Assembly: GCA_964409365.1 (NCBI GenBank)
Contig: CAYPCX010000003.1
Location: 84,577-148,576, forward strand
Length of the DNA stretch: 64,000 nt
Reading direction: 5' to 3'
Origin: an uncultured Planctomycetia bacterium
Lineage (GTDB): Bacteria; Omnitrophota; Gorgyraeia; Tantalellales; Tantalellaceae
Shown: positions 2,239 to 58,767 of the stretch, one piece after another
How positions within the stretch are numbered: the first letter of the stretch is position 1
Layout: every line of letters starts with the position of its first letter
Notes under the pieces: generated by a model
Seen by the model: the letters and a program-made list of their open reading frames with translations, nothing else
Told to the model about the DNA's origin: nothing
The model's database searches: none
Position numbers and translations under genes: made by a program

Positions 2239-2796
2239 ATGATAAAAGCGATATCGAGAGAATTACTGGTGCGGGCCTCAGAAGGCGACATGGAAGCCTT
2301 CGAGGAGATATACAGGGCCTCTTCGGGTTATGTTTATACGGTCGCTTATGGGATAACGGCGAGCAGAGAGGACGCCGAAGAGGTGACCCAGGACGTCTTT
2401 GTAAAGATATACCGGAAACTCGGCGGTTTCGGTTTCAGGTCTTCGTTCAAGACCTGGATATACAGGATAACGGCGAATACCGCCATCAACCGGTACAGGA
2501 AAAAGGCCAAGAGGTTCCGCCGGGAGAGGCCCCTGGACGAGGTGCTATCCCGCGTGATCCCCGGGGAGAAAGGCGATGAAAAATTCGACGCCGATCACAA
2601 CAGGACGCTGGTCGATTCGATGCTGAAGAGCCTCCCGCCGGATCAGCGCGCCTGCGTGGTCCTCAGGGAGATCGAGGGCCTGAAGTACGAGGAAATAGCC
2701 CGGACCCTGGAAATAAAGATAAACACGGTAAAGACGCGGCTCAAGAGGGCGCGGAAAAAACTTATGACGATATACGGAAAAGGAGAAAAGCCATGA
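2239..2796 (+). CDS. ECF (sigma-70 family group IV, RpoE-like) sigma factor
   Basis: 185 aa; region-2 like FVKIYRKLGGF...WIYRITANTAINRYRK; region-4 HTH EIARTLEIKINTVKTRLKRARKKL. ATGA start/stop overlap with the downstream anti-sigma gene. Confidence 0.85.
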   Translation: MIKAISRELLVRASEGDMEAFEEIYRASSGYVYTVAYGITASREDAEEVTQDVFVKIYRKLGGFGFRSSFKTWIYRITANTAINRYRKKAKRFRRERPLDEVLSRVIPGEKGDEKFDADHNRTLVDSMLKSLPPDQRACVVLREIEGLKYEEIARTLEIKINTVKTRLKRARKKLMTIYGKGEKP

Positions 2797-3275
2797 GATG
2801 CTCTAAAATAAGAGAACTGGTCCTCACGGATTATACGGACGGGGAACTTAATGAACGCACGCGCGTAGAGGTCGAAGCCCACATGCGGACGTGCGAAAAT
2901 TGCCGGCGGTTCGAAGCCCGTCTTAAAAGCAGGGTCTCCGACCCCCTGAGAAAAGCGCAGCGGCTCGAACCCCCCGAATACCTGTGGTCGCGCATCAAAG
3001 GCGCGATAGAGGAAAGGGCCAAGGAAAACCCGCTCACCGCGCTGAAAGAACGGCTCGAGTCCGTTCTCGTCGTCAGAAGGCCGGCCCTGGCCCTGGCATC
3101 CCTTGCGGTTATCCTGATCGCGGCTGTCTTTTTCACCGGGACGTTCATAGAAAGATCCCGGCTTAACAGTTATATTGAAGAACAGGTCGATTTTTTGGAG
3201 ACACTTAACAACGGGAACGGCAACGGCTACACGTATGACGATATAGGCATCCCGATGGAAGATCTTTTCCTCTAG
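2793..3275 (+). CDS. Anti-sigma factor, zf-HC2 type (putative zinc finger) with single TM helix
   Basis: H-x3-C-x2-C motif HMRTCENC near N-terminus; TM helix PALALASLAVILIAAVFFTG. Translationally coupled to the ECF sigma gene. Confidence 0.7.
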   Translation: MRCSKIRELVLTDYTDGELNERTRVEVEAHMRTCENCRRFEARLKSRVSDPLRKAQRLEPPEYLWSRIKGAIEERAKENPLTALKERLESVLVVRRPALALASLAVILIAAVFFTGTFIERSRLNSYIEEQVDFLETLNNGNGNGYTYDDIGIPMEDLFL

Positions 3276-3277
3276 AG

Positions 3278-3315
3278 GGAACTTTTTCCGGAGCACCTTT
3301 GTCTAAGACAGTGAG
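3278..3315 (+). promoter_or_regulatory. ECF (sigma-E-type) promoter GGAACTT-N16-GTCTAA-GACAGTGAG upstream of CpxP-like gene
   Basis: -35 3278-3284, -10 3301-3306; begins 3 nt after anti-sigma stop. Confidence 0.6.
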
Positions 3316-3350
3316 AGGCGGAAAAAGGACGATCTTAAAAAAGGAGGAGA

Positions 3351-3854
3351 ATGATGAAAATGACAATAAGGACATTTACGGCATGTTTGGTCGCGATAAC
3401 TCTCTTGACCGCGGCGCCGCTTGCTTTAGCGCAGCCCGCTCAGGGCAGCGGACCCGAGGGCGCGGGAGAATGCTCAAGGGGCGGCGCGCGCGCCGGATTC
3501 CTCGAACAGCTCGATCTCACCGACGAGCAGAAAGAACGGATGAAAGAGCAGCGCAAGGCGAACAGGGAGAAGATGAAAGAGCTCATGGGATCCCTCAGGA
3601 ACGAACGCAACGCCCTGCGGGACGAACTGAAAAAACCCGACGCCAGCATGGATTCGGTCGCGGGCACCGTCGCAAAGATGAAAACGGTGCAGTCAGAAAT
3701 GATCGACCAGAGAGTGAACGGTTTTCTCACGATGAAGGAGATCCTCACCCCCGAACAGTTCCAGAAACTCCTCGAACTGAAGGAACAGAGGAAACACCGC
3801 GGCGGCAAACGCCGCATGGAAAAAAAGCACCACATGCGAGGGGACTGGGACTGA
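3351..3854 (+). CDS. CpxP/Spy-family periplasmic LTXXQ-motif protein (envelope stress chaperone-like)
   Basis: Signal peptide MMKMTIRTFTACLVAITLLTAAPLALA; two LTxxQ motifs (LTDEQK, LTPEQF); helical K/E-rich repeats. SD GGAGGAG upstream. Confidence 0.7.
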   Translation: MMKMTIRTFTACLVAITLLTAAPLALAQPAQGSGPEGAGECSRGGARAGFLEQLDLTDEQKERMKEQRKANREKMKELMGSLRNERNALRDELKKPDASMDSVAGTVAKMKTVQSEMIDQRVNGFLTMKEILTPEQFQKLLELKEQRKHRGGKRRMEKKHHMRGDWD

Positions 3855-3884
3855 TAACATAGAGCCCGGGCGAACACACCGAAC

Positions 3885-3923
3885 ATACATCGGGTGTATG
3901 ACCAGGTTATACACCCGATGTAT
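3885..3923. repeat. Palindrome copy 2 (same 15-nt arms, 9-nt loop)
   Basis: Between CpxP-like stop (3854) and next gene start (3951). Confidence 0.7.
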
Positions 3924-3950
3924 AAATGTTCATAACGAAGGGAGAACAAG

Positions 3951-4424
3951 ATGAAGACCAGGAACGCGACGATCTTTGTCATGATCTTTTGCGCGGTATT
4001 AATGCTGGCCGAGACGGCATCCGCCGTTCCCCACAGATGGTATCCCCGAAGGAGGGTGGTCAAACCGGTGGTCGTGACCACCAAACCGCGAGTGGTGGTG
4101 ACCAGCCCCGCAAAGACAACGAAAGTGGCCGAAGGCTGGGGATCGCAAGCGATCACCCAGGAACCCATATCCCCCGAAATCATTAAAGAACGCGGTATAA
4201 AGCCGGACCAGGGCCTTATCGACTTCGAGGTATACCCCACATCCACAAAGATATATCTGGACGGGTCCTATAAGGGAACGGCGGGAACGCTCAACAAGGA
4301 GAAACACTCGCTCAAAGCCACGGCCGGCAGACACACCATCGAGCTGAAAAAGAAACTGGCGCCGACCAAGATAGTGAGGATACGCGTCGAGGCGAGACAC
4401 AAGACCCGGCTGGAACAATATTAA
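3951..4424 (+). CDS. Secreted protein with possible C-terminal PEGA-like beta domain
   Basis: Signal peptide; Pro/Val/Thr-rich linker; C-terminal FEVYPTSTKIYLDGSYKGTAG resembles PEGA domain pattern. Confidence 0.4.
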   Translation: MKTRNATIFVMIFCAVLMLAETASAVPHRWYPRRRVVKPVVVTTKPRVVVTSPAKTTKVAEGWGSQAITQEPISPEIIKERGIKPDQGLIDFEVYPTSTKIYLDGSYKGTAGTLNKEKHSLKATAGRHTIELKKKLAPTKIVRIRVEARHKTRLEQY

Positions 4425-4473
4425 CTTGAACTCTCCCATAAATCCACGTAGAATAAATAAAAACGGAGCATGA

Positions 4474-6540
4474 ATGGGAGATCTAAGAGAACTTGACCTC
4501 AAGAGCTGTTACTGGTATGACCGGGATGACATCCTTTTCGACCTCTATCTTCCCGCGCTATCGGCAGCATCCGCCTGCAGCAAGGTAACCGGCCCTTTAT
4601 CCTCCGAGACCCTTTCGGATCTCGCGAAGAACCTCCCTCAATTCGCCAGAAAAGGCGGACGCACTTTTCTTATCACCAGTATAGTCCTGCCCGGCGGGGG
4701 AACAGTCTCCGCGGAAGATATCGTGAAAAACACCGAGAACAGGGTCCTCAAAGAGATCGGCTATGTCAAGGACGAGGCAAAAAGGGACGGTATCGCGCTT
4801 CTGGGATGGATGCTGAAGACGGGCAACCTGCAGATAAAGATAGCCGTCGTTCCTGAGGGAGCGGAAGCGCCGGAGATAGGCATACTGGAAGATAATACAG
4901 GGAACCGCCTTTCCTTCGCGGGTTCCGGGAACTCGGCAGTGCATGCCTTCAGGAGCTGGGACGAGAGCGGAAAATACGTCGATGCTGATCTCGGTATCTT
5001 CGCGGGCCTCTGGAAATGCGAGGCAAAAAAGACAAAGGTCTATCCCGCGTCCGAGATGTTCACGAACGGCCTTATCCGGTTCGCCCCGGACGACGAGGCC
5101 GCATTCCTGCGCCTGGCACGGTCGATGTCCGAACGGCTGATGGGCCAGCGCAGGAAAAGCGTCGTAAAAAAAGATCTGAGAAAATACCAGGAAGAGGCCG
5201 TGAATGCCTGGCTGGATAGCGGCGCCAAAGGCATACTGGAAATGGCCCCGGCAACGGGCAAGACCTTCACGTCAGTCCATGCGATCGAGGCCCTGAGCAT
5301 TAAAACAGGGAAACTCCTGGCCGTTATAGTAGTACCTCACGAGTACCAGATCTCACTGTGGAAAAAGGAATTAACGGATTTTTTCGGTTATGATTTCGCG
5401 GTCAAAGAAGTTCGCGGGGATATGTCCCAATGGCCTGAGATCCTTGAAGAAAACATTAAGAAATACGCCTCGGGTGAAATGGACCGGCTGGCGATCCTTA
5501 CCATGTATAACACGTTTTCCACAAGCAGGTTCCAGGACCTTGCAGCCGGTCTTCCGGGCGGGGATCCCCAGACGCTGCTTGTCGCAGACGAGGTCCGTTT
5601 CATGAACTTCCCCGAGTTCAGAAGCGGCATGAAAGACACGTACAGGTACAGGCTGGGCCTGAGCGCCGTGCCGCGCGACTGGCTCGAAGACGCGGGGGAA
5701 GATACGCTAAAACAATATTTCGGCGGTACGGTTTACAGCTTTACTTTACAGGACGCTATCCCGGAATTCCTGAGCCCCTACAGCTATTTCCCGCAAACGG
5801 TCGAAATGGGACCCGCCGAGCTCAGCAGATACGCTGAAAAGGCGGGGGAGGATCTCGAGCGGCTATCAAGAGAAAGAGCAAGGGTCATTCTGGAAAACCC
5901 GGGGATACGTGCCGGGTTCGAAAGGATCATACAGGACCTTAAAGAAGAGGGTCAGGTAAACCATCTCCTGGTCTATTGCAGGCCGGAGCAGCTCGATTGG
6001 GTCACGGAAACGCTGAAAGGCAAGGACATCCCGTATCACCGCCTCGACCTGCGGGAATCCAGGGAAGAAAGACGCCTTATGCTCGAACGTTTTAAAAAAG
6101 GCTCTGTCGCGGCCCTTTGCGCCGCGCGCTGTCTCGACCAGGGACTTGAAATGCCGGCGGCGAAAACGGTCATCTTCCTGGCCGCCGATTCCAGCCCCGC
6201 GCAATACATCCAGAGGAGGGGAAAAGTGCTCCTCAAAGACGCGGATAAGGAACAAACGGACATCTATGATTTTATAGTTCTTCCCGCCGAAGGACAGACA
6301 TTGAACAGGATGCTGTACCTCGCCGAAAGGAAGCTTTTCGATAAGCAGCTTGCCCAGGCCCAGATTTTTTACGTGAACGCCAGGAACAGTTCCGACGTGA
6401 TGCCAAAGATGCGCCAGATCGCTTCCCGGTACGACCTCGAGCTTAAGGAAACATCTGCCCCTCCACGCAGGACCGCGCCCATGGCAAGGCTCGGGGGCCT
6501 GGGCCGGCAAAGCTACCTCAATTCACAGAACGGAAAATAA
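4474..6540 (+). CDS. Superfamily-2 DEAD/DEAH-box helicase (type III restriction Res-subunit-like) with ~240-aa uncharacterised N-terminal domain
   Basis: Walker A MAPATGKT (motif I); motif II VADEVR (DExx-type); helicase-C motifs QGLEMP (V) and QRRGKV (VI). N-terminal domain has a GSGNS stretch but no clear HxK. 688 aa. Confidence 0.75.
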   Translation: MGDLRELDLKSCYWYDRDDILFDLYLPALSAASACSKVTGPLSSETLSDLAKNLPQFARKGGRTFLITSIVLPGGGTVSAEDIVKNTENRVLKEIGYVKDEAKRDGIALLGWMLKTGNLQIKIAVVPEGAEAPEIGILEDNTGNRLSFAGSGNSAVHAFRSWDESGKYVDADLGIFAGLWKCEAKKTKVYPASEMFTNGLIRFAPDDEAAFLRLARSMSERLMGQRRKSVVKKDLRKYQEEAVNAWLDSGAKGILEMAPATGKTFTSVHAIEALSIKTGKLLAVIVVPHEYQISLWKKELTDFFGYDFAVKEVRGDMSQWPEILEENIKKYASGEMDRLAILTMYNTFSTSRFQDLAAGLPGGDPQTLLVADEVRFMNFPEFRSGMKDTYRYRLGLSAVPRDWLEDAGEDTLKQYFGGTVYSFTLQDAIPEFLSPYSYFPQTVEMGPAELSRYAEKAGEDLERLSRERARVILENPGIRAGFERIIQDLKEEGQVNHLLVYCRPEQLDWVTETLKGKDIPYHRLDLRESREERRLMLERFKKGSVAALCAARCLDQGLEMPAAKTVIFLAADSSPAQYIQRRGKVLLKDADKEQTDIYDFIVLPAEGQTLNRMLYLAERKLFDKQLAQAQIFYVNARNSSDVMPKMRQIASRYDLELKETSAPPRRTAPMARLGGLGRQSYLNSQNGK

Positions 6541-6544
6541 CGAA

Positions 6545-6961
6545 ATGCAGGTGAACGAAAAAAGGACCTTTATCGGCAGATTTTCTTCGAACGCGGACCT
6601 TTTAAGCTCCCTCACTGGTCTCTGCAAAGAGGAGAACATCAGGCTGGGCGTCTTCACGGTCATCGGCGCGCTGAAATGCGCTAAACTGGGCTACTATGAC
6701 CAGGCCGCCAAAAGATACGTGACGAACGTGGAGCTTGATAAAAAGCTCGAGATCACCTCCTGCATAGGCAACATATCGCTCATGGATTCGGAAATATTCG
6801 TGCATGCCCATATCACCATGGCCGACAGGGAAGGGAAGTGCTTCGGCGGCCACCTCATGCCGGGCGCGACCATATTCGCCGCCGAATACCACATAAAAGA
6901 GCTCATCGGCGCTGAACTCTCCCGCAAACCCGACCCCGATACCGGCCTTTCTCTCTGGTAA
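6545..6961 (+). CDS. PPC (DUF296) domain protein, predicted DNA-binding
   Basis: 138 aa. Conserved DUF296 pattern: GxFxVIGAL..., HAHITMADREGKCFGGHL, AEYHIKEL. Begins 5 nt after the helicase stop. Confidence 0.7.
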   Translation: MQVNEKRTFIGRFSSNADLLSSLTGLCKEENIRLGVFTVIGALKCAKLGYYDQAAKRYVTNVELDKKLEITSCIGNISLMDSEIFVHAHITMADREGKCFGGHLMPGATIFAAEYHIKELIGAELSRKPDPDTGLSLW

Positions 6962-7025: not shown

Positions 7026-7652
7026 ATGAGAAAACTTTTTATCTTGCTTACATGCCTGGCGCTGGCAGGTTGTGCTACCACTTCCTCAAGAAGCGGGTAC
7101 ACGGCCGGTGGTATCAATACCCCCCGGACCGGGGAACTTAGCGACGGCCAGATGATCGAGCTTTTTCACAAGGTCTATGATGAACCCGCAGAGGACCAGA
7201 TCGACCGGATCGCCAAAGACATCACGATAACAGCGCTCACGAACGCCATGGAGGCCAGAAGGTCCCGGGAAATAAAAGGGTCCGGTGTCCTTAAGGCGGA
7301 ACATAAAAAAGTGGAGCTCAAGAAATGGACCGATAACGATCTACTTGACACCTACCGTTCACTGCGGGTAAAGCTGGACACAGGGGCGGCGGAAGCCGCC
7401 GCTGACACGAATGGATATAACAGCGCTTACTGGGGCACGAGCTCGGCGCGGGACGAAGAAAAAGCAGCGGCCCCGGAGAACGCGGATGAAACGTTAAAGA
7501 TAATGCGCCTGACCGCGGCCTGTTCGATAGAGAACGAACTGAGCCGGAGGGACAAGATCGCTTCAAGGTGGGCCGTCGTCGGCACGGCTGCGGGCGTAAC
7601 GGCGACTATCGCGGCGCGGGTAGCCCTCATGTTGGCCCCATTCCTGATATGA
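7026..7652 (+). CDS. Lipoprotein, paralog A of a two-member family (C-terminal TM helix)
   Basis: Lipobox LALAGC; C-terminal hydrophobic helix. Shares ITIT / GSGV / KVELKKW.DNDL / YRSL / IMRLT blocks with the 9092-9652 protein. Confidence 0.55.
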   Translation: MRKLFILLTCLALAGCATTSSRSGYTAGGINTPRTGELSDGQMIELFHKVYDEPAEDQIDRIAKDITITALTNAMEARRSREIKGSGVLKAEHKKVELKKWTDNDLLDTYRSLRVKLDTGAAEAAADTNGYNSAYWGTSSARDEEKAAAPENADETLKIMRLTAACSIENELSRRDKIASRWAVVGTAAGVTATIAARVALMLAPFLI

Positions 7653-9091: not shown

Positions 9092-9652
9092 ATGGACCAC
9101 TGGATCAGGAAATGCGGTATATTCATTCTGGCCGTGCTCGTATACGCGGCGATCTCCGGCTGCGCCAGCACCAAGGCGCATTACGGGTACAAGGTCGACG
9201 GCCAGCAATACGCCTCCTTCAAAGAGCTCGATGACGAGCAATCCCTCAAAATGGTGGTCATGCTTTATAACGTCCCGACGGAAACATATGAGGACAAAAC
9301 AGCCAAGAACATCACTATCACCAAATACATGGAACTTCTCCAAAAGCGGAAGTCCGACTATATCGCCGGTTCCGGCGTATTTGACCTGCAATACGAAAAG
9401 ATAGATCTCAAGGTCTGGCCGGAAGACGACCTCATAAGCGTTTACCGGGCCCTGGCCGAAAAACCGGGAGTGTACGATCATCAAACGACACACGAACTTT
9501 CCGAGAACGACAACGCCACAAAGATCGTCAGGCTTACCGGCATGGAAGAGATCGTCAGGGAGCTCCGCAACAGGCAGAACACCAGACAGGCCTGGAGCAT
9601 CCTCGCGCAGGTCCTGACGATCGCCCTCAATGTGGCGCTCGCCGCTATCTGA
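9092..9652 (+). CDS. Lipoprotein, paralog B of the 7026-7652 family
   Basis: Internal Met MDHWIRKCGIFILAVLVYAAISGC (lipobox) within ORF 8981..9652. Conserved blocks KNITITKY, GSGVFDLQYEKIDLKVWPEDDL, YRAL, IVRLT; C-terminal TM. Confidence 0.5.
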   Translation: MDHWIRKCGIFILAVLVYAAISGCASTKAHYGYKVDGQQYASFKELDDEQSLKMVVMLYNVPTETYEDKTAKNITITKYMELLQKRKSDYIAGSGVFDLQYEKIDLKVWPEDDLISVYRALAEKPGVYDHQTTHELSENDNATKIVRLTGMEEIVRELRNRQNTRQAWSILAQVLTIALNVALAAI

Positions 9653-23110: not shown

Positions 23111-24868
23111 ATGCAGAAAAGCGTAGTTACGAATAAGTATTCACTGGTCGACAGCCTGCCTGTATTCTCGGACCTGTCCCTTTTCCAAAAGATACTGGTG
23201 GCTTCAAGCTGCCACGTCGTTGAGTTCGAAAAAGGCGAGCACGTTTACGAAGAAGGCGACGCTCCCGACCATTTTTTCTGCGTGGTAAGCGGTAGGGTCG
23301 AGATATACCATCCCGCCGGCAAGACACGGACCGGCAGGAAGTTCATGCTCGAAGTTATCCGAAAAGGCGATTATTTCGGCCTGATATCCTCGCTGACGGG
23401 TAAACCCCATACCGTAAGCGCCCGGGCGCTCAACGATTCCGTGGTGCTCAGGATAAACAACAGGAATTTCAGCCGCATACTGAACAAGATTCCGGCCCTT
23501 GCGATAAAACTGAGCCGTTCCCTTTCCAGGAGGCTGGGCCGGAAACCTTTCAAGGAAATATTCGAAAGCCGGATAATCTCCGTTTATGGCATGACCGCCC
23601 CAGAAGACGCCGCCTTTTACGCCCGGAGCCTGGCGGAAAGCGTTAAAAAGGAATCCGGTAAAAAAGCGCTGGTCATACGGTCGACCTCGTTCTCAAAAGA
23701 AAAAGAGGTCTCTTCCAGGTTAAGCGCCCTTACGGGTGACCACCACTATATAATAGCGGATATATTCCCCGGCGACAGGAAAATAGACCTGGAGATCATC
23801 AGGCAATCCGACGCCTGCCATATCCTTAGCGCTTCCGATAAGGCCTCGCTCACGAGGACCGCGTCCTTTGTCAAACAGGCGGAAAAGCTCTTTGTAAAAC
23901 ATTCCGATCAAGCTGCCCTGGTCATATTGAAAGAGGACCGTCATTATCCGGACCTCTCTTATGAGGAAAAGGTCAAAGCGCTCTCAAAAGAAGTGTTCGC
24001 CACGCTTCCCGGACGCGGAGCAGTGTACAAAAAAGCGGTGCGCCGTATAGCCAGGGAGGTTTCCGGGGTGCGGGTGGGGCTTGCCCTGGGCGCGGGCGGC
24101 GCTATGGGCCTCGCCCACATCGGCGTCCTCAAGGTGCTGGAAAAAGAAAAAGTGCCCGTCGATATCGTCGCGGGCTGCAGTATCGGGGCGTTCATAGCGG
24201 CGTTATGGGCCGCAGGTTCCTCCGCCGCGGAGATCGAAAAACTCGTGTGCGGTTTTGACACCAGGCTCAAGACCCTCTTCTTGCTCGACCCGACCCTGCC
24301 CCTGCGGGGGCTCATAAAGGGAAAAGCGGTCAGGAAGGTACTGGAAAGATATCTGGGGGACAAGACCTTCTTCGACACGACCCTGCCCCTGAAAATAGTG
24401 ACATGCGACATAAAGACCAGGGAGAAATTCGTGATAGATTCCGGAAGCCTCGTGGACGCTGTAATGGCCAGCATAGCGATACCCGGGGTCTTCGAGCCGG
24501 TGCCCTTCGGCGGCACACAGCTCGTCGACGGGGGGATCGTCGATCCTTTACCGGTAAGCGTGTTATCAAGGGCAGGCATCAAGAAGGTGGTCGCCGTGAA
24601 CACGCTGCCTTCCCCGGAAGAGATGGCCGTCACGAGCCCCAGGAGTCTTAATCTCTATAACGTGATAGTGAACAGCTTTCATGCCGCCGAATACACCATG
24701 GCCGTCAACTCATGCCAGCAGGCGGACGTATACCTGCATCCCGTACTCGGGACCGCGGACTGGCACGAGTTCCATAAGGCGCGGCTGTTCATCCGGACAG
24801 GCCGCAACGAAGCGGTACGTATGCTGCCGCAGATCAAAGACCTCGCAAGGCAGAAACCCTGCGCTTAA
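23111..24868 (+). CDS. Cyclic-nucleotide-binding domain fused to patatin-like phospholipase (NTE-like)
   Basis: N-terminal cNMP-binding fold (EGDAPDHFFCVVSGRVEI); patatin motifs GLALGAGGAMGLAHIGVL (GxGxxG), GCSIG (GxSxG), DGG (VDGGIVD). Confidence 0.8.
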   Translation: MQKSVVTNKYSLVDSLPVFSDLSLFQKILVASSCHVVEFEKGEHVYEEGDAPDHFFCVVSGRVEIYHPAGKTRTGRKFMLEVIRKGDYFGLISSLTGKPHTVSARALNDSVVLRINNRNFSRILNKIPALAIKLSRSLSRRLGRKPFKEIFESRIISVYGMTAPEDAAFYARSLAESVKKESGKKALVIRSTSFSKEKEVSSRLSALTGDHHYIIADIFPGDRKIDLEIIRQSDACHILSASDKASLTRTASFVKQAEKLFVKHSDQAALVILKEDRHYPDLSYEEKVKALSKEVFATLPGRGAVYKKAVRRIAREVSGVRVGLALGAGGAMGLAHIGVLKVLEKEKVPVDIVAGCSIGAFIAALWAAGSSAAEIEKLVCGFDTRLKTLFLLDPTLPLRGLIKGKAVRKVLERYLGDKTFFDTTLPLKIVTCDIKTREKFVIDSGSLVDAVMASIAIPGVFEPVPFGGTQLVDGGIVDPLPVSVLSRAGIKKVVAVNTLPSPEEMAVTSPRSLNLYNVIVNSFHAAEYTMAVNSCQQADVYLHPVLGTADWHEFHKARLFIRTGRNEAVRMLPQIKDLARQKPCA

Positions 24869-26293: not shown

Positions 26294-27019
26294 ATGACGA
26301 TCCCGTTCCATAGAATACCCGCAACGAACCGTTTCGCGGTTGCCATTGCCGCGATTCTTATCCCTCTCGCGCTCCTGGCCTTCGGCGTGTACGGCACTTT
26401 TTCTTTTACGTTCTCGATCCCCCTGATCTGGCAGTTCTGCTTTCTGGGAGAGGGAATAAACTCTCTCGGCCTCAAAAGGAGGTCTTTCTGGCCTTCCGCA
26501 GCAACGGGCATACTAACGGGCATCGTCCTCGCTGTTTCGGGAGGATTTATCCTGAAGGCCCTGGGAATGACGGGTTATTCCCTGGACAAGGTCCACGAAT
26601 TGAACAGTTTCCTCCGTTCCTTCGGGATAAAGATCACGTTCATGGGGGAGGCGGGATTCAAGCTTCTCTCGGCGGGGAATGAACTGAATTGGGTCCTGTT
26701 GTCCCTGATATACTGTGTGCTCCTCGTCGGGCTGGGCGAGGAGATATTCTGGAGGGGGTTCATCCAGCGGAAGATATCAAGAACTTTACCCGTGCCTGCC
26801 TCCATATGGGTAACAGCGGTCCTGTTCGCCCTGGTGCACAGCTACCTGTTCTTCATCATCCCTTTCAAAGAGGGACTTATTTTCCTGGGGCTCATAACCC
26901 TGGCCGGAGCGTTCTGGGGGTACCTGTATGAATACTTCGGCAACATCTGGGGGCCGGCCTTTTCCCACGGTATCATCGCTTTCATCGTGTGGAGATACTT
27001 CGTGTTCTCGACCGTTTAG
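26294..27019 (+). CDS. CPBP-family intramembrane metalloprotease (CAAX-protease/Abi-like)
   Basis: Motif 1 EEIFWRGF (EExxxR), motif 2 FALVH (FxxxH), third His-containing helix; 6-7 TM. Confidence 0.75.
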   Translation: MTIPFHRIPATNRFAVAIAAILIPLALLAFGVYGTFSFTFSIPLIWQFCFLGEGINSLGLKRRSFWPSAATGILTGIVLAVSGGFILKALGMTGYSLDKVHELNSFLRSFGIKITFMGEAGFKLLSAGNELNWVLLSLIYCVLLVGLGEEIFWRGFIQRKISRTLPVPASIWVTAVLFALVHSYLFFIIPFKEGLIFLGLITLAGAFWGYLYEYFGNIWGPAFSHGIIAFIVWRYFVFSTV

Positions 27020-27080
27020 AACTGGAAAAGGAGAACCTTTAGGTGTAAAATTAAACAAAACGATCCAAAAAGGAGACAAC

Positions 27081-28502
27081 ATGAAAAGGGCTATCACTTT
27101 TGCACTTGCGCTGCTTTTGGCTTTCAATGCCGGTCCTGTTTCTGGACAGGGTCCGGCCCAGCGGGAACTTATCGGTGAGACCCGCGTTAAGAGGGGAAGG
27201 AACGAAGCCGGTGTAGCCCTGATACGGCTGGGCCCGGAAAAACTCGCGGCGCTGGTGAGGACCCCGTTAAGGGCAAAAGCGAAAGTACAGAAGATGGAGC
27301 TCATAAGCCCGTCGGGTAAACGATACAAGTCCTCCAACACGGACCAGGTGCCTTCCAGGCAGCTCGGGCAGTATTTTGACCAGATCTCATCTGTCGGCAG
27401 GATATTCGGTGATTTTTGTAAAAGGGTCGATTCGATCCTGACCCGCGAGGCGTGCGCGGACGGCGGTTGTCCGAGTAGCGGAGGGACAGGCGGCGGCCAA
27501 GAACCTTGCCATGAGGACAGGGTCAGTGACAGAGAGCGCGCTGAGAGATTTGCCGCGTTCACGGCCCTGATAGGCCGTGCCATGATGGACAAAGACCAGT
27601 GGTTCACGGTACTCCTTTACGACAAAATAACGATAGAGCCCGGTTCCTGGGAGATCCACCTTGTGATGGTCGATGACCGCGGTAAGCGCGTGCGTGTGAC
27701 CGGTACCCTGGAGGTTATCGGGCCGGCTGAAGGCGAGGAAATAGACCCCATGTTACTCAGATATATGACCGACTACGATAAATATTCCAGGCGTTTGCAG
27801 CAGATCGCCCCCGACAGTTACGAAGCACAGACTATAAGAAGGATCCTTCCCGGTCTTGAAGACTCAATAAGGTCAATGGGGGGGGAAGTGCCGGAAATAC
27901 CTCAACCGCCTGTGGAACCGGTTCCTGAGGTCGACATGCCGGCCGGCGGAGCACAGCCGCCCGCTGGCGGCCGGGACCTGCCATGGGCAGAATCCACCAA
28001 CCGCGCTACAGGCATCACTACGAGATCCGAAGCGAACCCTGACGGTTCGCACACCATTACAAGAACGGACAAAAACGGCAATGTGATCTCACGTGAAACA
28101 ACACCCCCGCCGCGTGCACGGGGACCTCAAGCCGGAGCTCCGCCTGGCGCCGCCCAACCCGGTGCCCAACCCGGAGCGCCCGCGGGCCAGCCCGCCGCGC
28201 CTGCCGGCCGGCAAGACCGGCCGTGGGCCGAAGGTTACGACCATCCCCGCGAGGGCGTAACTACACGGTCCGAGGGACAAGCGGACGGTTCACACTCGAT
28301 CACGCAAACTGATGACCAGACCGGCAGGGTGATCCAGCGCCGGACCACGCCCCCGGCGGGAACTGCGCCGCCGAGCGGACGCTCAAGTTACACGGACCCC
28401 GAAACCGGCGTTACGACGACCATTGACAGAACGGGGGCCGGTACACGGACCACCCAGACCGACCGAAGCGGCAGAGTAATATCGGACAAGCTTGATATTT
28501 GA
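27081..28502 (+). CDS. Secreted protein with Pro/Ala/Gly-rich linker and three tandem ~40-aa C-terminal repeats
   Basis: Signal peptide MKRAITFALALLLAFNAGPVSG (SD AAGGAG). Repeats G[IV]TTRSE..DGSH[ST]IT.TD..G.VI.R.TTPP. Confidence 0.5.
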   Translation: MKRAITFALALLLAFNAGPVSGQGPAQRELIGETRVKRGRNEAGVALIRLGPEKLAALVRTPLRAKAKVQKMELISPSGKRYKSSNTDQVPSRQLGQYFDQISSVGRIFGDFCKRVDSILTREACADGGCPSSGGTGGGQEPCHEDRVSDRERAERFAAFTALIGRAMMDKDQWFTVLLYDKITIEPGSWEIHLVMVDDRGKRVRVTGTLEVIGPAEGEEIDPMLLRYMTDYDKYSRRLQQIAPDSYEAQTIRRILPGLEDSIRSMGGEVPEIPQPPVEPVPEVDMPAGGAQPPAGGRDLPWAESTNRATGITTRSEANPDGSHTITRTDKNGNVISRETTPPPRARGPQAGAPPGAAQPGAQPGAPAGQPAAPAGRQDRPWAEGYDHPREGVTTRSEGQADGSHSITQTDDQTGRVIQRRTTPPAGTAPPSGRSSYTDPETGVTTTIDRTGAGTRTTQTDRSGRVISDKLDI

Positions 28503-57309: not shown

Positions 57310-58767
57310 ATGTCGGCAAAAATATCGCAAAATATTAACAGTTTTTTCACGAAACAGCTGATCAATTTTTTGCCTTTCTTTTTAAAAAGGGCGTCCAAGA
57401 AGAACCTTATAAGTATGTTCGAACTTGCGGCCAAATTCGCCCACACTGAAGAGGACAAAAAAGACATATCCGGAACTATCTGGCGATTGAAGAACAATTA
57501 CGGGACCCTGGATTTTTTCAAACGCCTTATTGATGAACTAAATCCGCGATGCATGAAAAAGTTTTTCGAGAACGCGCATCTGGTCCATCACGATATCAGC
57601 AAAATAGGCCTGGAATTCCGGGAAAGGGAAGGTTTCCGCGGTCCCGATGTCCTGGTGCTCGATGTCACGGCCAGATGTAATTTGCGATGTAAGGGATGCT
57701 GGGCCGGGGAGTATGATAAGAAGGCCGAAGATCTCGATATGAAGCTGATCGAAAAAGCACTGGATGAGGCAAGATACAAAATAGGGCTTAACCATATCGC
57801 CGTAACAGGGGGAGAACCTCTTATAAGAGAAAACCTTTTTGACATCTTTGAGAAATACTCCGATTGCCAATTCATACTCTATACCAATGGGACGCTTTTA
57901 ACGGACGAGAAGATAAAGAAAATAGCCGAATTAGGGAACGTTTATGTGCTTTTAAGCATTGAAGGCAATGAGGAATATACTGACGCGAGAAGGGGGGAAG
58001 GCGTATATAAAAAGGTCATTAACGCCATGGAGAGGTTGAAGAAAGCCGGTGTCATATTCGGCTTTTCAAGCTGTCCTACCCGCGAAAATATCGAATACCT
58101 GGCCAGTGACGAGTTCGTCGATACCATGCTTGAAAAAGGCTGCCATTACGGTTTCTATTTCCAGTATGTTCCGGTCGGAAGGGATCCCGATCCTGAATTA
58201 ATGCCCACGCCCGAGCAAAGGAATGCCGTAAGGTATAGTCTTTACAGGCACAGGAACACAAAACCGATACTTTTGATCGATTTCTGGAATGACGGCCCTG
58301 AGGTCAACGGTTGCATGGCCGGTGGCAGGAAATACCTTCATATAACGAATAACGGTGACATTGAACCCTGTGTTTTTGTCCATTTTGCCGTAGGTAACAT
58401 CAAGGATATGAGCATAACAGATGCGCTTAAGTCGTCTTTTTTCACTGAGATAAGGAACAATATTCCCTATGACGGCAATCTTTTAAGGCCATGTATGATA
58501 ATCGACAGGCCTTACGTCCTAAGAGGCCTGGTCGAAAAACATAAAGCTTACGCTTCCGACAGGGATGCGGAACTTTTGTTCACCAAGTGCAAGGATGCGC
58601 TTGATAATTATTCCAAAGAATTAAGCGAAGTATTGGACAAGGAATGGGAGGCGGGAAAATGGATGTGTTTCTACCCGTCACCGGAGAGGCCCGAGATAAT
58701 AGGCCTTGATAAAGACAAAGCCGATGTCACGGCCTCGCATGGAACCCGATCTCCCGTTTCCGCTTAG
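57310..58767 (+). CDS. Radical SAM enzyme with SPASM/twitch-like C-terminal domain and ~110-aa N-terminal extension (RRE-like)
   Basis: Cx3Cx2C CNLRCKGC; GGEPL glycine-rich SAM motif; C-terminal NGCMAGG...ITNNGDIEPCVF...RPCM Cys cluster. Confidence 0.8.
   Translation: MSAKISQNINSFFTKQLINFLPFFLKRASKKNLISMFELAAKFAHTEEDKKDISGTIWRLKNNYGTLDFFKRLIDELNPRCMKKFFENAHLVHHDISKIGLEFREREGFRGPDVLVLDVTARCNLRCKGCWAGEYDKKAEDLDMKLIEKALDEARYKIGLNHIAVTGGEPLIRENLFDIFEKYSDCQFILYTNGTLLTDEKIKKIAELGNVYVLLSIEGNEEYTDARRGEGVYKKVINAMERLKKAGVIFGFSSCPTRENIEYLASDEFVDTMLEKGCHYGFYFQYVPVGRDPDPELMPTPEQRNAVRYSLYRHRNTKPILLIDFWNDGPEVNGCMAGGRKYLHITNNGDIEPCVFVHFAVGNIKDMSITDALKSSFFTEIRNNIPYDGNLLRPCMIIDRPYVLRGLVEKHKAYASDRDAELLFTKCKDALDNYSKELSEVLDKEWEAGKWMCFYPSPERPEIIGLDKDKADVTASHGTRSPVSA

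What the first reader, a model, noticed from the sequence alone, without database searches (positions are those of the whole stretch)
4474..6961. SF2 helicase with an unassigned 240-aa N-terminal domain, translationally coupled to a PPC/DUF296 DNA-binding protein: candidate two-gene nucleic-acid surveillance/defence pair
The helicase core is complete: motifs I (ATGKT), II (DEVR), V (QGLEMP) and VI (QRRGKV). It resembles type III restriction Res / defence-island helicases. The N-terminal domain (GGRTFLITSIVLPGGG ... IKIAVVPEG ... ILEDNTGNRLSFAGSGNSAVHAFRS) has a PLD-like GSxN stretch. It lacks the HxK dyad, so a degenerate PLD-type nuclease fold is possible but unproven.

The downstream gene starts 5 nt after the stop and encodes a PPC (DUF296) domain, a fold associated with DNA binding. 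I know of no described system pairing these two. Placement right after a stress module and before lipoprotein genes gives no housekeeping context.
Basis: partly seen in the sequence, partly recalled or inferred. Interest (0 to 1): 0.6.

Follow-up and report, generated by a model that had tools for sequence, protein, structure and literature searches.

The report
Orphan, catalytically dead PbeA defence helicase
The helicase is a stranded, catalytically degenerate copy of PbeA, the nuclease-helicase subunit of a known four-gene anti-virus system, and it merely sits next to a conserved PPC gene, so it is not a new two-gene defence pair.

Summary
Both ORFs exist as described: 4474-6540 (688 aa) and 6545-6961 (138 aa, PPC/DUF296).

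The "unassigned" N-domain is a PLD/HKD nuclease fold. The whole protein is a full-length homologue of PbeA (PADLOC E 6e-135), the HKD-nuclease + SF2-helicase subunit of the PbeABCD (CxC-ABC-ATPase/DndE) defence system.

- **No partners.** In relatives, PbeA is followed by PbeB-PbeC-PbeD (52 of 59 loci with enough downstream sequence). None of 85 family loci has a PPC gene. The window has no PbeBCD, dnd or cassette methylase genes.
- **PPC is a resident gene.** It is a conserved Omnitrophota gene (62-76% identical homologues) with a different upstream neighbour in every relative.
- **The helicase core is not complete.** The protein lacks the HKD His and Lys, the motif II His, the motif III Thr and both motif VI arginines. 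These are kept in 139-143 of 143 family representatives. It has lost 8 of 22 a-priori motif residues, against 1% in the family.
- **Old and fast-evolving.** Its branch is about 2.4 times longer than its sisters', and its composition matches the host.
- **The frame is still open.** This argues for some residual selection.

Verdict: an orphaned, inactivated PbeA remnant. Low interest.

The parts
4474..6540 (+). Full ORF of the orphan, degenerate PbeA homologue (688 aa): PLD/HKD-like domain + SF2 helicase core + unique C-terminal tail
   Evidence: ORF. PADLOC PbeA PDLC02707 E 5.7e-135 over aa 4-642. 1,087 family representatives at E<=1e-30, the nearest only 41% identical.
4474..5157 (+). N-terminal PLD/HKD-fold domain (aa 1-228) with a dead active site: family motif GIxHxKxGILED...SFSGSxNET reads GAEAPEIGILED...SFAGSGNS (H132A, K134E), plus a deletion of about 10 aa after GSxN
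   Evidence: Alignment. HKD H kept in 140/143 and K in 139/143 representatives. AF2 pLDDT 93. Foldseek top hits are SauUSI PLD domain 7CLG, Streptomyces PLD, BfiI and Zucchini. Profile hits to NucT and MitoPLD fall on the HKD motif.
5170..6399 (+). SF2 (ResIII/XPB-like) helicase core, aa 233-642. Walker A GKT (262-264) and Walker B DE (372-373) are retained. Mutated: motif I T259P and G260A, Q295L, motif II H375R, motif III T399V, K478I, motif V E556Q and D559E, motif VI R584K and R587L
   Evidence: Pfam ResIII and Helicase_C. PDB sequence hits to XPB/Rad25. Residue survey: H375, R584, R587 and T259 are each 143/143 in the family, and T399 is 142/143. A-priori motif test.
6448..6540 (+). Lineage-specific C-terminal extension (about aa 659-688, ETSAPPRRTAPMARLGGLGRQSYLNSQNGK) that runs past where all homologues end and places the stop codon 4 nt before the PPC start
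   Evidence: C-terminal alignment block; DNA of the junction.
4426..4473 (+). Upstream region with a promoter-like site (TTGAAC-17-TAGAAT, 4426-4454) and a GGAG Shine-Dalgarno 5 nt before the ATG at 4474
   Evidence: Consensus scan and sequence. These are consensus matches only, not evidence of function.
6545..6961 (+). PPC/DUF296 gene (138 aa). It is a conserved resident Omnitrophota gene, probably co-transcribed with the helicase ORF, but not a family partner of it
   Evidence: Pfam PF03479 1.4e-29. 349 homologues, the listed ones 61-76% identical. Variable neighbours in relatives. No similarity to PbeD. No PADLOC hit.

Best explanation
The 688-aa protein is an orphaned, catalytically degenerate homologue of PbeA, the HKD(PLD)-nuclease + SF2-helicase subunit of the PbeABCD system (also called the CxC-ABC-ATPase/DndE system). 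It lies in the chromosome of a Candidatus Omnitrophota bacterium. Proposed history (inferred): a PbeABCD-type cassette was acquired horizontally. The partner genes pbeB, pbeC and pbeD, and any modification genes, were then lost. The remaining pbeA evolved about 2.4 times faster than its sister lineages and lost constraint on catalysis in both domains. The PLD nucleophile His and its Lys are gone (A132, E134). The motif II His, motif III Thr and both motif VI arginines are replaced. It therefore most likely neither cleaves DNA nor translocates by ATP hydrolysis, and it does not act as a defence system. ATP and DNA binding may persist, because Walker A GKT and Walker B DE are intact. Its reading frame has nevertheless been kept open. 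Two reasons are possible. My slight preference is that the ORF is co-transcribed and translationally coupled with the strongly conserved PPC gene, so that premature stops would be polar on PPC. The alternative is that the protein keeps a non-catalytic role as a pseudoenzyme. The adjacency to the PPC gene is positional, not a conserved functional pairing.
For: Shown: full-length PbeA match. PLD fold of aa 1-228. Closest relatives sit in MTase-PbeA-PbeB-PbeC-PbeD cassettes. 52 of 59 family loci with enough downstream DNA have a PbeC-like gene 120-800 nt downstream, and 0 of 85 have a PPC ORF. No PbeB, PbeC, PbeD or cassette methylase is in the window by tblastn, and there are no Dnd or Pbe partner hits by PADLOC among 59 window ORFs. 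The rest of the window is housekeeping genes without integrases. The protein lacks all of 7 key catalytic residues, while no other of 143 unbiased representatives lacks more than 2. In the a-priori test it lost 8/22 motif residues, the same rate as other conserved sites (22/71, Fisher p 0.79); the family loses 1.0% of motif and 6.1% of other conserved residues, and the equally divergent P0272 loses 0/22. Branch length is 0.67-0.77 against 0.26-0.33 substitutions per site, with Tajima p from 1e-6 to 2e-9. GC 0.55 and GC3 0.66 match the host, whereas sister genes have GC 0.29-0.34. The PPC gene is conserved at 62-76% in Omnitrophota with different upstream genes in each relative. From the literature: PbeA is an HKD endoDNase + SF2 helicase working with a CxC ABC ATPase (PbeC), a DndE-like protein (PbeD) and a small protein (PbeB); all four genes are needed for protection (PMC6459918, PMC10853773).
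Against: The ORF is intact over 688 codons. If the roughly 0.4 excess substitutions per site were neutral, about 14-15 stop codons would be expected (stop/missense ratio 0.053). So the gene is not simply decaying, and a function cannot be excluded. Walker A and B, Q580, R581 and G583 are retained, so residual ATPase activity is conceivable. Only 64 kb of the genome was screened for partner genes, plus the further 7.5 kb upstream shown, so PbeBCD could lie elsewhere. Part of the accelerated amino-acid change may reflect the AT-to-GC compositional shift rather than relaxed selection. All available copies are essentially the same strain, so no dN/dS could be measured.
Confidence: 0.78

Rival explanations
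1. One reading: the helicase and the PPC protein form a new two-gene nucleic-acid surveillance or defence system, translationally coupled, with PPC as the DNA-binding partner.
For: The genes are 4 nt apart on the same strand with no terminator-like site between them. The helicase belongs to a defence family. The function of bacterial PPC proteins is unknown, and some sources name them DNA-binding proteins.
Against: The pair is unique to this strain. 0 of 85 PbeA-family loci have a PPC ORF. 0 of 16 PPC-homologue loci have a PbeA-like helicase. PPC has no PADLOC hit. The helicase has lost nuclease and ATPase catalytic residues that are invariant in the family. The tight spacing results from a unique C-terminal extension, and PPC relatives are just as tightly spaced behind unrelated genes, with gaps of 2 and 11 nt. 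The surroundings are not a defence island.
Confidence: 0.04
2. It is a domesticated pseudoenzyme. The catalytically dead PbeA fold has been recruited for a non-catalytic role, for example as an ATP- or DNA-binding scaffold, regulator or decoy, and is maintained by protein-level selection. It may or may not act together with PPC.
For: The frame stays open despite a long, fast branch. About 69% of family-conserved positions, including Walker A and B and many structural G, P, W and F residues, are retained. Composition matches the host, which indicates long residence. A promoter-like site and a good Shine-Dalgarno lie upstream.
Against: Motif and non-motif conserved positions are lost at the same rate (36% vs 31%), which looks like general relaxation and not selective remodelling. 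No second lineage shares these changes among 1.84 billion representatives; the nearest relative is 41% identical. There is therefore no evolutionary conservation of the derived state. The open frame can also be explained by polarity on the downstream PPC gene.
Confidence: 0.3
3. It is a still-active, merely divergent PbeA-type restriction motor that works alone or in trans with PbeBCD or modification genes located elsewhere in the genome.
For: Xiong et al. report that many PbeAC pairs lack nearby dnd genes (PMC6459918). Seven of 59 family loci with enough downstream DNA lack PbeC directly downstream; the six of these whose motifs were checked keep all 7 key residues. Walker A and B are retained. 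Only part of the genome was examined.
Against: The PLD nucleophile His and the Lys are both replaced. Motif II H, motif I T and both motif VI arginines are 143/143 in the family and are all replaced here. An equally divergent member (P0272) keeps 22/22 motif residues. In HKD enzymes the His is the catalytic nucleophile, and in SF2 helicases the motif VI arginines are needed for ATP hydrolysis (established knowledge, not tested here).
Confidence: 0.06

Closest known systems
PbeA of the PbeABCD system (Xiong et al. 2019, PMC6459918), also described as the HKD endoDNase + SF2 helicase of the CxC-ABC-ATPase/DndE systems (PMC10853773)
   Same: Same three-part architecture and length: a single HKD/PLD domain, a ResIII helicase N-lobe and a Helicase_C lobe. 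It aligns end to end with PADLOC PbeA models (E 6e-135). The nearest relatives are bona fide PbeA genes in PbeABCD cassettes.
   Different: It has no PbeB, PbeC or PbeD and no neighbouring methylase or dnd genes. The HKD His and Lys and 6 helicase-motif residues are lost. It has a deletion of about 10 aa in the PLD domain and a C-terminal extension of about 30 aa. It is a singleton lineage, at most 41-45% identical to anything else.
TIGR04095 dnd_restrict_1 ('DNA phosphorothioation system restriction enzyme')
   Same: The helicase region (aa 234-655) aligns over the whole model, E 1e-81.
   Different: It scores 275 bits against a curated cut-off of 600, so it is not a member of that equivalog. 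No dnd genes are in the window.
SauUSI (PDB 7CLG), an ATP-dependent type IV restriction enzyme with a PLD nuclease + SF2 helicase + target-recognition domain
   Same: It is the best structural match of the N-domain model (Foldseek E 6e-6), and its helicase C-lobe is hit by sequence. The domain order is the same: PLD nuclease, then SF2 motor.
   Different: Only 13-15% identity. The window protein has no C-terminal modified-DNA recognition domain, and unlike a working PLD nuclease it lacks the catalytic His and Lys.
Type III restriction Res subunit and XPB/Rad25-like SF2 helicases
   Same: Pfam ResIII and Helicase_C domains. XPB/Rad25 are the best PDB sequence hits (1e-15).
   Different: Res subunits carry a C-terminal PD-(D/E)xK nuclease and pair with a Mod methylase. 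Here the nuclease-type domain is an N-terminal PLD fold and there is no Mod gene.
Stand-alone prokaryotic PPC/DUF296 proteins (PF03479)
   Same: The downstream gene is a typical full-length member (1.4e-29), 62-76% identical to many Omnitrophota homologues.
   Different: Nothing unusual in the protein itself. Only its position behind a PbeA remnant is unique.

Membership tests
PbeA protein family (HKD + SF2 helicase) | Full-length sequence similarity to PbeA profiles | tested here: met
   PADLOC PDLC02707 449.5 bits, E 5.7e-135, aa 4-642 against profile positions 2-668 of 672.
PbeA protein family (HKD + SF2 helicase) | N-terminal PLD/HKD fold | tested here: met
   AF2 model pLDDT 93. Foldseek hits SauUSI, PLD, BfiI and Zucchini. 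Profile hits to NucT and MitoPLD fall on the HKD motif.
PbeA protein family (HKD + SF2 helicase) | Catalytic HxK...D...GSxN motif intact | tested here: not met
   H132A and K134E; D140, G150, S151 and N153 are kept. The family keeps H in 140/143 and K in 139/143.
PbeA protein family (HKD + SF2 helicase) | Intact SF2 ATPase motifs I, II, III and VI | tested here: not met
   GKT and DE are kept, but T259P, G260A, H375R, T399V, R584K and R587L are changed. Each of T259, H375, R584 and R587 is 143/143 in the family. 8/22 a-priori motif residues are lost.
PbeABCD / CxC-ABC-ATPase-DndE defence system | PbeA followed by a small PbeB, a PbeC ABC-ATPase and a PbeD DndE-like gene | tested here: not met
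   No tblastn hit of PbeB, PbeC or PbeD in 64 kb and no PADLOC hit. In relatives the cassette is present in 52 of 59 loci. The rest of the genome was not examined.
PbeABCD / CxC-ABC-ATPase-DndE defence system | Associated DNA modification module (dndCDEA or a DNA methylase) | tested here: not met
   No Dnd hits among 59 window ORFs. Cassette methylases are absent. The only methyltransferase found among the 34 window ORFs scanned with Pfam is the ribosomal protein methylase PrmA.
PbeABCD / CxC-ABC-ATPase-DndE defence system | Protection against viruses | not testable with these tools
   Needs a phage challenge experiment.
TIGR04095 dnd_restrict_1 equivalog | Score above the curated cut-off (600 bits) | tested here: not met
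   275.3 bits.
Type III restriction Res subunit | ResIII helicase + C-terminal PD-(D/E)xK nuclease + adjacent Mod methylase | tested here: not met
   Only the ResIII and Helicase_C domains match. The C-terminus is a short unique tail. No Mod gene is nearby.
PPC/DUF296 (PF03479) | Pfam model above the gathering score over the full domain | tested here: met
   103.3 bits against a cut-off of 25, aa 7-121 against profile positions 1-116 of 117.
Hypothetical 'helicase + PPC' two-gene system | Conserved adjacency of the two genes across genomes | tested here: not met
   0 of 85 helicase-family loci have PPC. 0 of 16 PPC loci have a PbeA-like helicase.

The most novel reading that the evidence does not exclude
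The doubly inactivated PbeA fold has been domesticated as a non-catalytic DNA- or ATP-binding protein that works with the conserved PPC/DUF296 protein. This would be the first functional clue for bacterial PPC proteins and an example of a defence motor-nuclease recycled as a pseudoenzyme. A variant of this reading is that the relic ORF is kept open purely as a translational-coupling leader for the PPC gene.
Probability: 0.1. Interest if true: 0.45.

Novelty: new member of a known kind. Interest (0 to 1): 0.17.

Why it matters
Mostly as a correction. A helicase that looked like an unknown defence pair is a member of the described PbeA family, and its neighbour is an unrelated resident gene. Two minor points of interest remain. 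First, it is a clear natural example of a defence motor-nuclease stranded after losing its partners, with both active sites degraded, yet still an open reading frame. That is useful as a caution for automated defence-system callers, because PADLOC-type HMMs match it at E 1e-135. Second, 3 of 143 PbeA representatives lack only the HKD His and Lys. This bears slightly on the open argument over whether PbeABCD needs DNA cleavage at all (PMC6459918 against PMC10853773).

Tried and rejected
(1) dN/dS from related strains. All other contigs carrying the gene (L001, L002, L008) are identical in the helicase, with 1 nt difference in 12 kb, so there is no signal.

(2) Synteny test for insertion. PPC relatives share no neighbouring genes with the window, so an 'empty site' could not be found.

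(3) Insertion scars. Only short two-copy repeats at chance level were found, for example 19 nt at 4427 and 6913, 84% identical. No integrase or transposase is in the window.

(4) PPC as a disguised PbeD (both 138 aa). No similarity, E 0.15.

(5) The unannotated 709-aa ORF upstream of the PPC homologue in L020 as a hidden PbeA relative. tblastn found nothing on L020.

(6) My first '7 key residues' statistic was chosen after seeing the deviations. I replaced it with an a-priori list of 22 motif residues and divergent controls. The conclusion held. It also showed that motif residues are not lost preferentially over other conserved sites, so the data do not show selection for inactivation.

(7) Pfam alone does not recognise the N-domain, and sequence search of the PDB hit only the helicase lobes. 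The PLD assignment needed the family alignment, profile and fold search.

(8) The genome-contig scan with PPC returned only 11 distant loci and not the source genome.

(9) Rfam found nothing in the window.
Full report
**Observation.**
The two ORFs are real and lie at the stated coordinates: 4474-6540 (+, 688 aa) and 6545-6961 (+, 138 aa). The helicase stop TAA is at 6538-6540 and the next ATG at 6545. Pfam finds ResIII (aa 233-401) and Helicase_C (491-585) in the first ORF and nothing in aa 1-232. The second ORF is a full PPC/DUF296 domain (PF03479, 1.4e-29).

**Identity of the helicase.**
PADLOC models of PbeA match the protein end to end. PDLC02707 gives E 5.7e-135, aa 4-642 against profile positions 2-668 of 672. 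NCBIfam TIGR04095 ('DNA phosphorothioation system restriction enzyme') matches the helicase part but scores 275 bits against a 600-bit cut-off.

PbeA was described as a PLD domain + ResIII + helicase-C protein, the first gene of the pbeABCD cassette. That cassette, together with dndCDEA phosphorothioation, protects haloarchaea against a virus, and all four pbe genes are required (PMC6459918). A later comparative study re-annotated the components (PMC10853773):
- PbeA is an HKD endoDNase fused to an SF2 helicase.
- PbeB is a small, fast-evolving protein.
- PbeC is a CxC-type ABC-ATPase.
- PbeD is a DndE-like protein.

So the architecture is a described one.

**The N-terminal domain.**
I aligned the protein with 41 homologues. 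The family carries one canonical HKD motif, G-I-x-H-x-K-x-G-I-L-E-D...S-F-S-G-S-x-N-E-T. The window protein aligns in register but reads GAEAPEIGILED...SFAGSGNS, and about 10 residues after GSxN are missing. A profile of the family N-domain hits the PLD nucleases NucT and MitoPLD/Zucchini on exactly this motif, though weakly (E about 0.01). An AlphaFold2 model of aa 1-228 is confident (pLDDT 93.2, pTM 0.88). Its best PDB matches are the PLD nuclease domain of SauUSI (7CLG), Streptomyces PLD, BfiI and Zucchini.

**The helicase core is not complete.**
An exhaustive HMMER search of 1.84 billion representatives found 1,087 family members at E<=1e-30. The nearest is only 41% identical. In an alignment with 143 of these representatives, which were not selected by motif, retention was as follows:

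| Residue | Family retention | Window protein |
|---|---|---|
| HKD His | 140/143 | A |
| HKD Lys | 139/143 | E |
| Motif I Thr259 | 143/143 | P |
| Motif Ia Gln295 | 137/143 | L |
| Motif II His375 | 143/143 | R |
| Motif III Thr399 | 142/143 | V |
| Motif VI Arg584 | 143/143 | K |
| Motif VI Arg587 | 143/143 | L |

Of the seven key residues scored (all of these except Thr259), no other representative lacks more than two. Walker A GKT, Walker B DE, and Q580, R581 and G583 are retained.

I had picked those residues after seeing the deviations, so I repeated the test with an a-priori list of 22 motif residues:
- The window protein has lost 8/22 motif residues (36%) and 22/71 other conserved residues (31%). 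The two rates do not differ (Fisher p 0.79).
- The other representatives have lost 1.0% of motif residues and 6.1% of other conserved residues.
- P0272 is equally divergent (21/71) yet keeps 22/22 motif residues.

Catalysis is therefore no longer under constraint. From established knowledge, the HKD His is the nucleophile of PLD-type nucleases, and the motif VI arginines are needed for ATP hydrolysis in SF2 motors. On that basis the protein most likely neither cuts DNA nor translocates. This is inferred, not tested.

**Evolutionary behaviour.**
The branch leading to the window protein is 0.67-0.77 substitutions per site, against 0.26-0.33 for its sisters. Tajima relative-rate tests give p from 1e-6 to 2e-9. 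The gene's GC (0.55), GC3 (0.66) and codon usage are host-like, whereas the sister PbeA genes have GC 0.29-0.34 and GC3 0.17-0.31. The gene is thus a long-term resident and not a fresh acquisition. The compositional shift may account for part of the extra amino-acid change.

About 5.3% as many single-nucleotide changes give a stop as give a missense change. If the excess of roughly 0.4 replacements per site were neutral, 14-15 stop codons would be expected, and none is seen. Something still selects for an open frame.

**Partners and context.**
The three closest relatives lie in cassettes of the form methylase(s)-PbeA-small ORF (56-67 aa)-ABC-ATPase (about 640-660 aa)-DndE-like protein (about 135 aa). 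One of these is in an Omnitrophota MAG, next to a serine recombinase and terminase-like genes.

Among 80 further metagenomic loci plus these, 59 have at least 2.5 kb downstream of PbeA. Of those, 52 carry a PbeC-like gene starting 120-800 nt downstream. PbeD-like genes occur in 46 loci. A PPC ORF occurs in none of 85 loci.

The window has no PbeB, PbeC, PbeD or cassette methylases (tblastn) and no Dnd or Pbe partner hit among 59 ORFs (PADLOC). The surroundings are:
- a P-type ATPase;
- an ECF sigma, anti-sigma and LTXXQ module;
- lipoproteins;
- a Na/H exchanger and OprB;
- then ordinary metabolic and transport genes.

There are no integrases or transposases.

**The PPC gene.**
It has at least 349 homologues. 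The 120 listed are 61-76% identical and come mostly from Omnitrophota and other PVC-group MAGs. GlpK from the window is 81% identical to Omnitrophota proteins. Against the nearest available relative, housekeeping genes are 76-81% identical while the helicase is 44%.

Around 16 PPC homologues there is no PbeA-like helicase. This rests on tblastn for 14 loci and on gene tables for L103 and L104. L103 does carry an ordinary 406-aa DEAD-box helicase two genes upstream. No synteny with the window exists. The upstream gene differs every time: acetolactate decarboxylase (2-nt gap), RNase T (11-nt gap), and unknown ORFs of 101, 121 and 709 aa. PPC is unrelated to PbeD and has no PADLOC hit.

The 4-nt spacing in the window arises because the helicase ORF carries a unique tail of about 30 aa that runs past the point where all homologues end. 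Tight spacing is therefore not evidence of a functional pair. Co-transcription is still likely: a promoter-like site and a GGAG Shine-Dalgarno lie upstream of 4474, and no terminator-like site lies between the genes.

**Interpretation.**
The best-supported reading (confidence about 0.78) is an orphaned, inactivated PbeA remnant. A PbeABCD-type cassette entered this Omnitrophota lineage and the partner genes were lost. The remaining gene lost catalytic constraint in both domains and took on host composition, and it now sits directly upstream of an unrelated conserved gene.

Why the frame is still open is unresolved. I slightly favour cis-selection, meaning polarity or translational coupling on the conserved PPC gene. 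The reason is that motif and non-motif conserved sites are lost at the same rate, which looks like general relaxation at the protein level. A non-catalytic pseudoenzyme role is the main alternative.

An active but divergent enzyme working with distant partners is unlikely (about 0.06).

**Novelty and score.**
The family and architecture are known, and the pairing is not conserved. The only unusual feature is the double inactivation with a maintained frame, seen in a single strain. This is a new, degenerate member of a known kind, and interest is low (about 0.17).

Noticed in passing
window 2239-4424: Upstream module on the same strand: ECF sigma factor (2239-2796), zf-HC2 anti-sigma (2793-3275, 4-nt overlap), LTXXQ/Metal_resist periplasmic protein (3351-3854) and a 157-aa protein without Pfam hit (3951-4424). 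It is preceded by a P-type cation ATPase (3-2132). It looks like an envelope or metal stress unit.
   Followed up: partly
window 3885-3923: Near-perfect 19-nt palindrome (ATACATCGGGTGTATGACC / GGTTATACACCCGATGTAT, 95% complementary, 1 nt between the arms) in the intergenic region between the LTXXQ gene and the 157-aa gene. It could be an operator or a hairpin without a T-run.
   Followed up: no
window 7026-7652 and 9092-9652: The two downstream lipoprotein-like genes (lipobox LAGC / ISGC) are paralogues: 31% identity, E 6e-28. Neither has a Pfam or NCBIfam hit. Several small ORFs without annotation lie between them.
   Followed up: partly
window 23111-24868: A protein combining a cyclic-nucleotide-binding domain with a patatin-like phospholipase (Pfam). 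It probably explains the PADLOC 'Effector phospholipase' hit. It is solitary, with no CBASS-like or Pycsar-like cyclase next to it.
   Followed up: no
window 57310-58767: A radical SAM + SPASM gene with clearly lower GC (0.449, GC3 0.53) than the rest of the window (about 0.55 / 0.70). It may be a more recent horizontal acquisition.
   Followed up: no
window 26928-28502: A 524-aa ORF with no Pfam hit and atypical GC3 (0.59) and codon usage.
   Followed up: no
P0208, P0306, P0312 (family representatives); P0039: A few PbeA-family members lack only the HKD His and Lys but keep all the helicase motif residues scored. These may be naturally nuclease-dead PbeA variants, which is relevant to the dispute over whether PbeABCD cleaves DNA. 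Their gene neighbourhoods were not examined.
   Followed up: no
L005 1-16498 (Omnitrophica MAG GCA_028712375.1): The PbeABCD cassette of the 39%-identical relative is preceded by Vsr and a C5 DNA methylase, with a serine recombinase further upstream. It is followed by a ParB-N6/N4 methylase and a terminase-like gene, so it sits in a mobile-element or prophage-like context.
   Followed up: no
L020 1-8417: Upstream of a 75%-identical PPC homologue lie defence-like genes (SLFN/AlbA_2-HATPase, AEP-TOTE + DEAD/ResIII helicase) and an unannotated 709-aa ORF. tblastn found no similarity to the window helicase.
   Followed up: partly
window 1-64000: No Rfam family reaches its gathering score anywhere in the 64-kb window.
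   Followed up: yes
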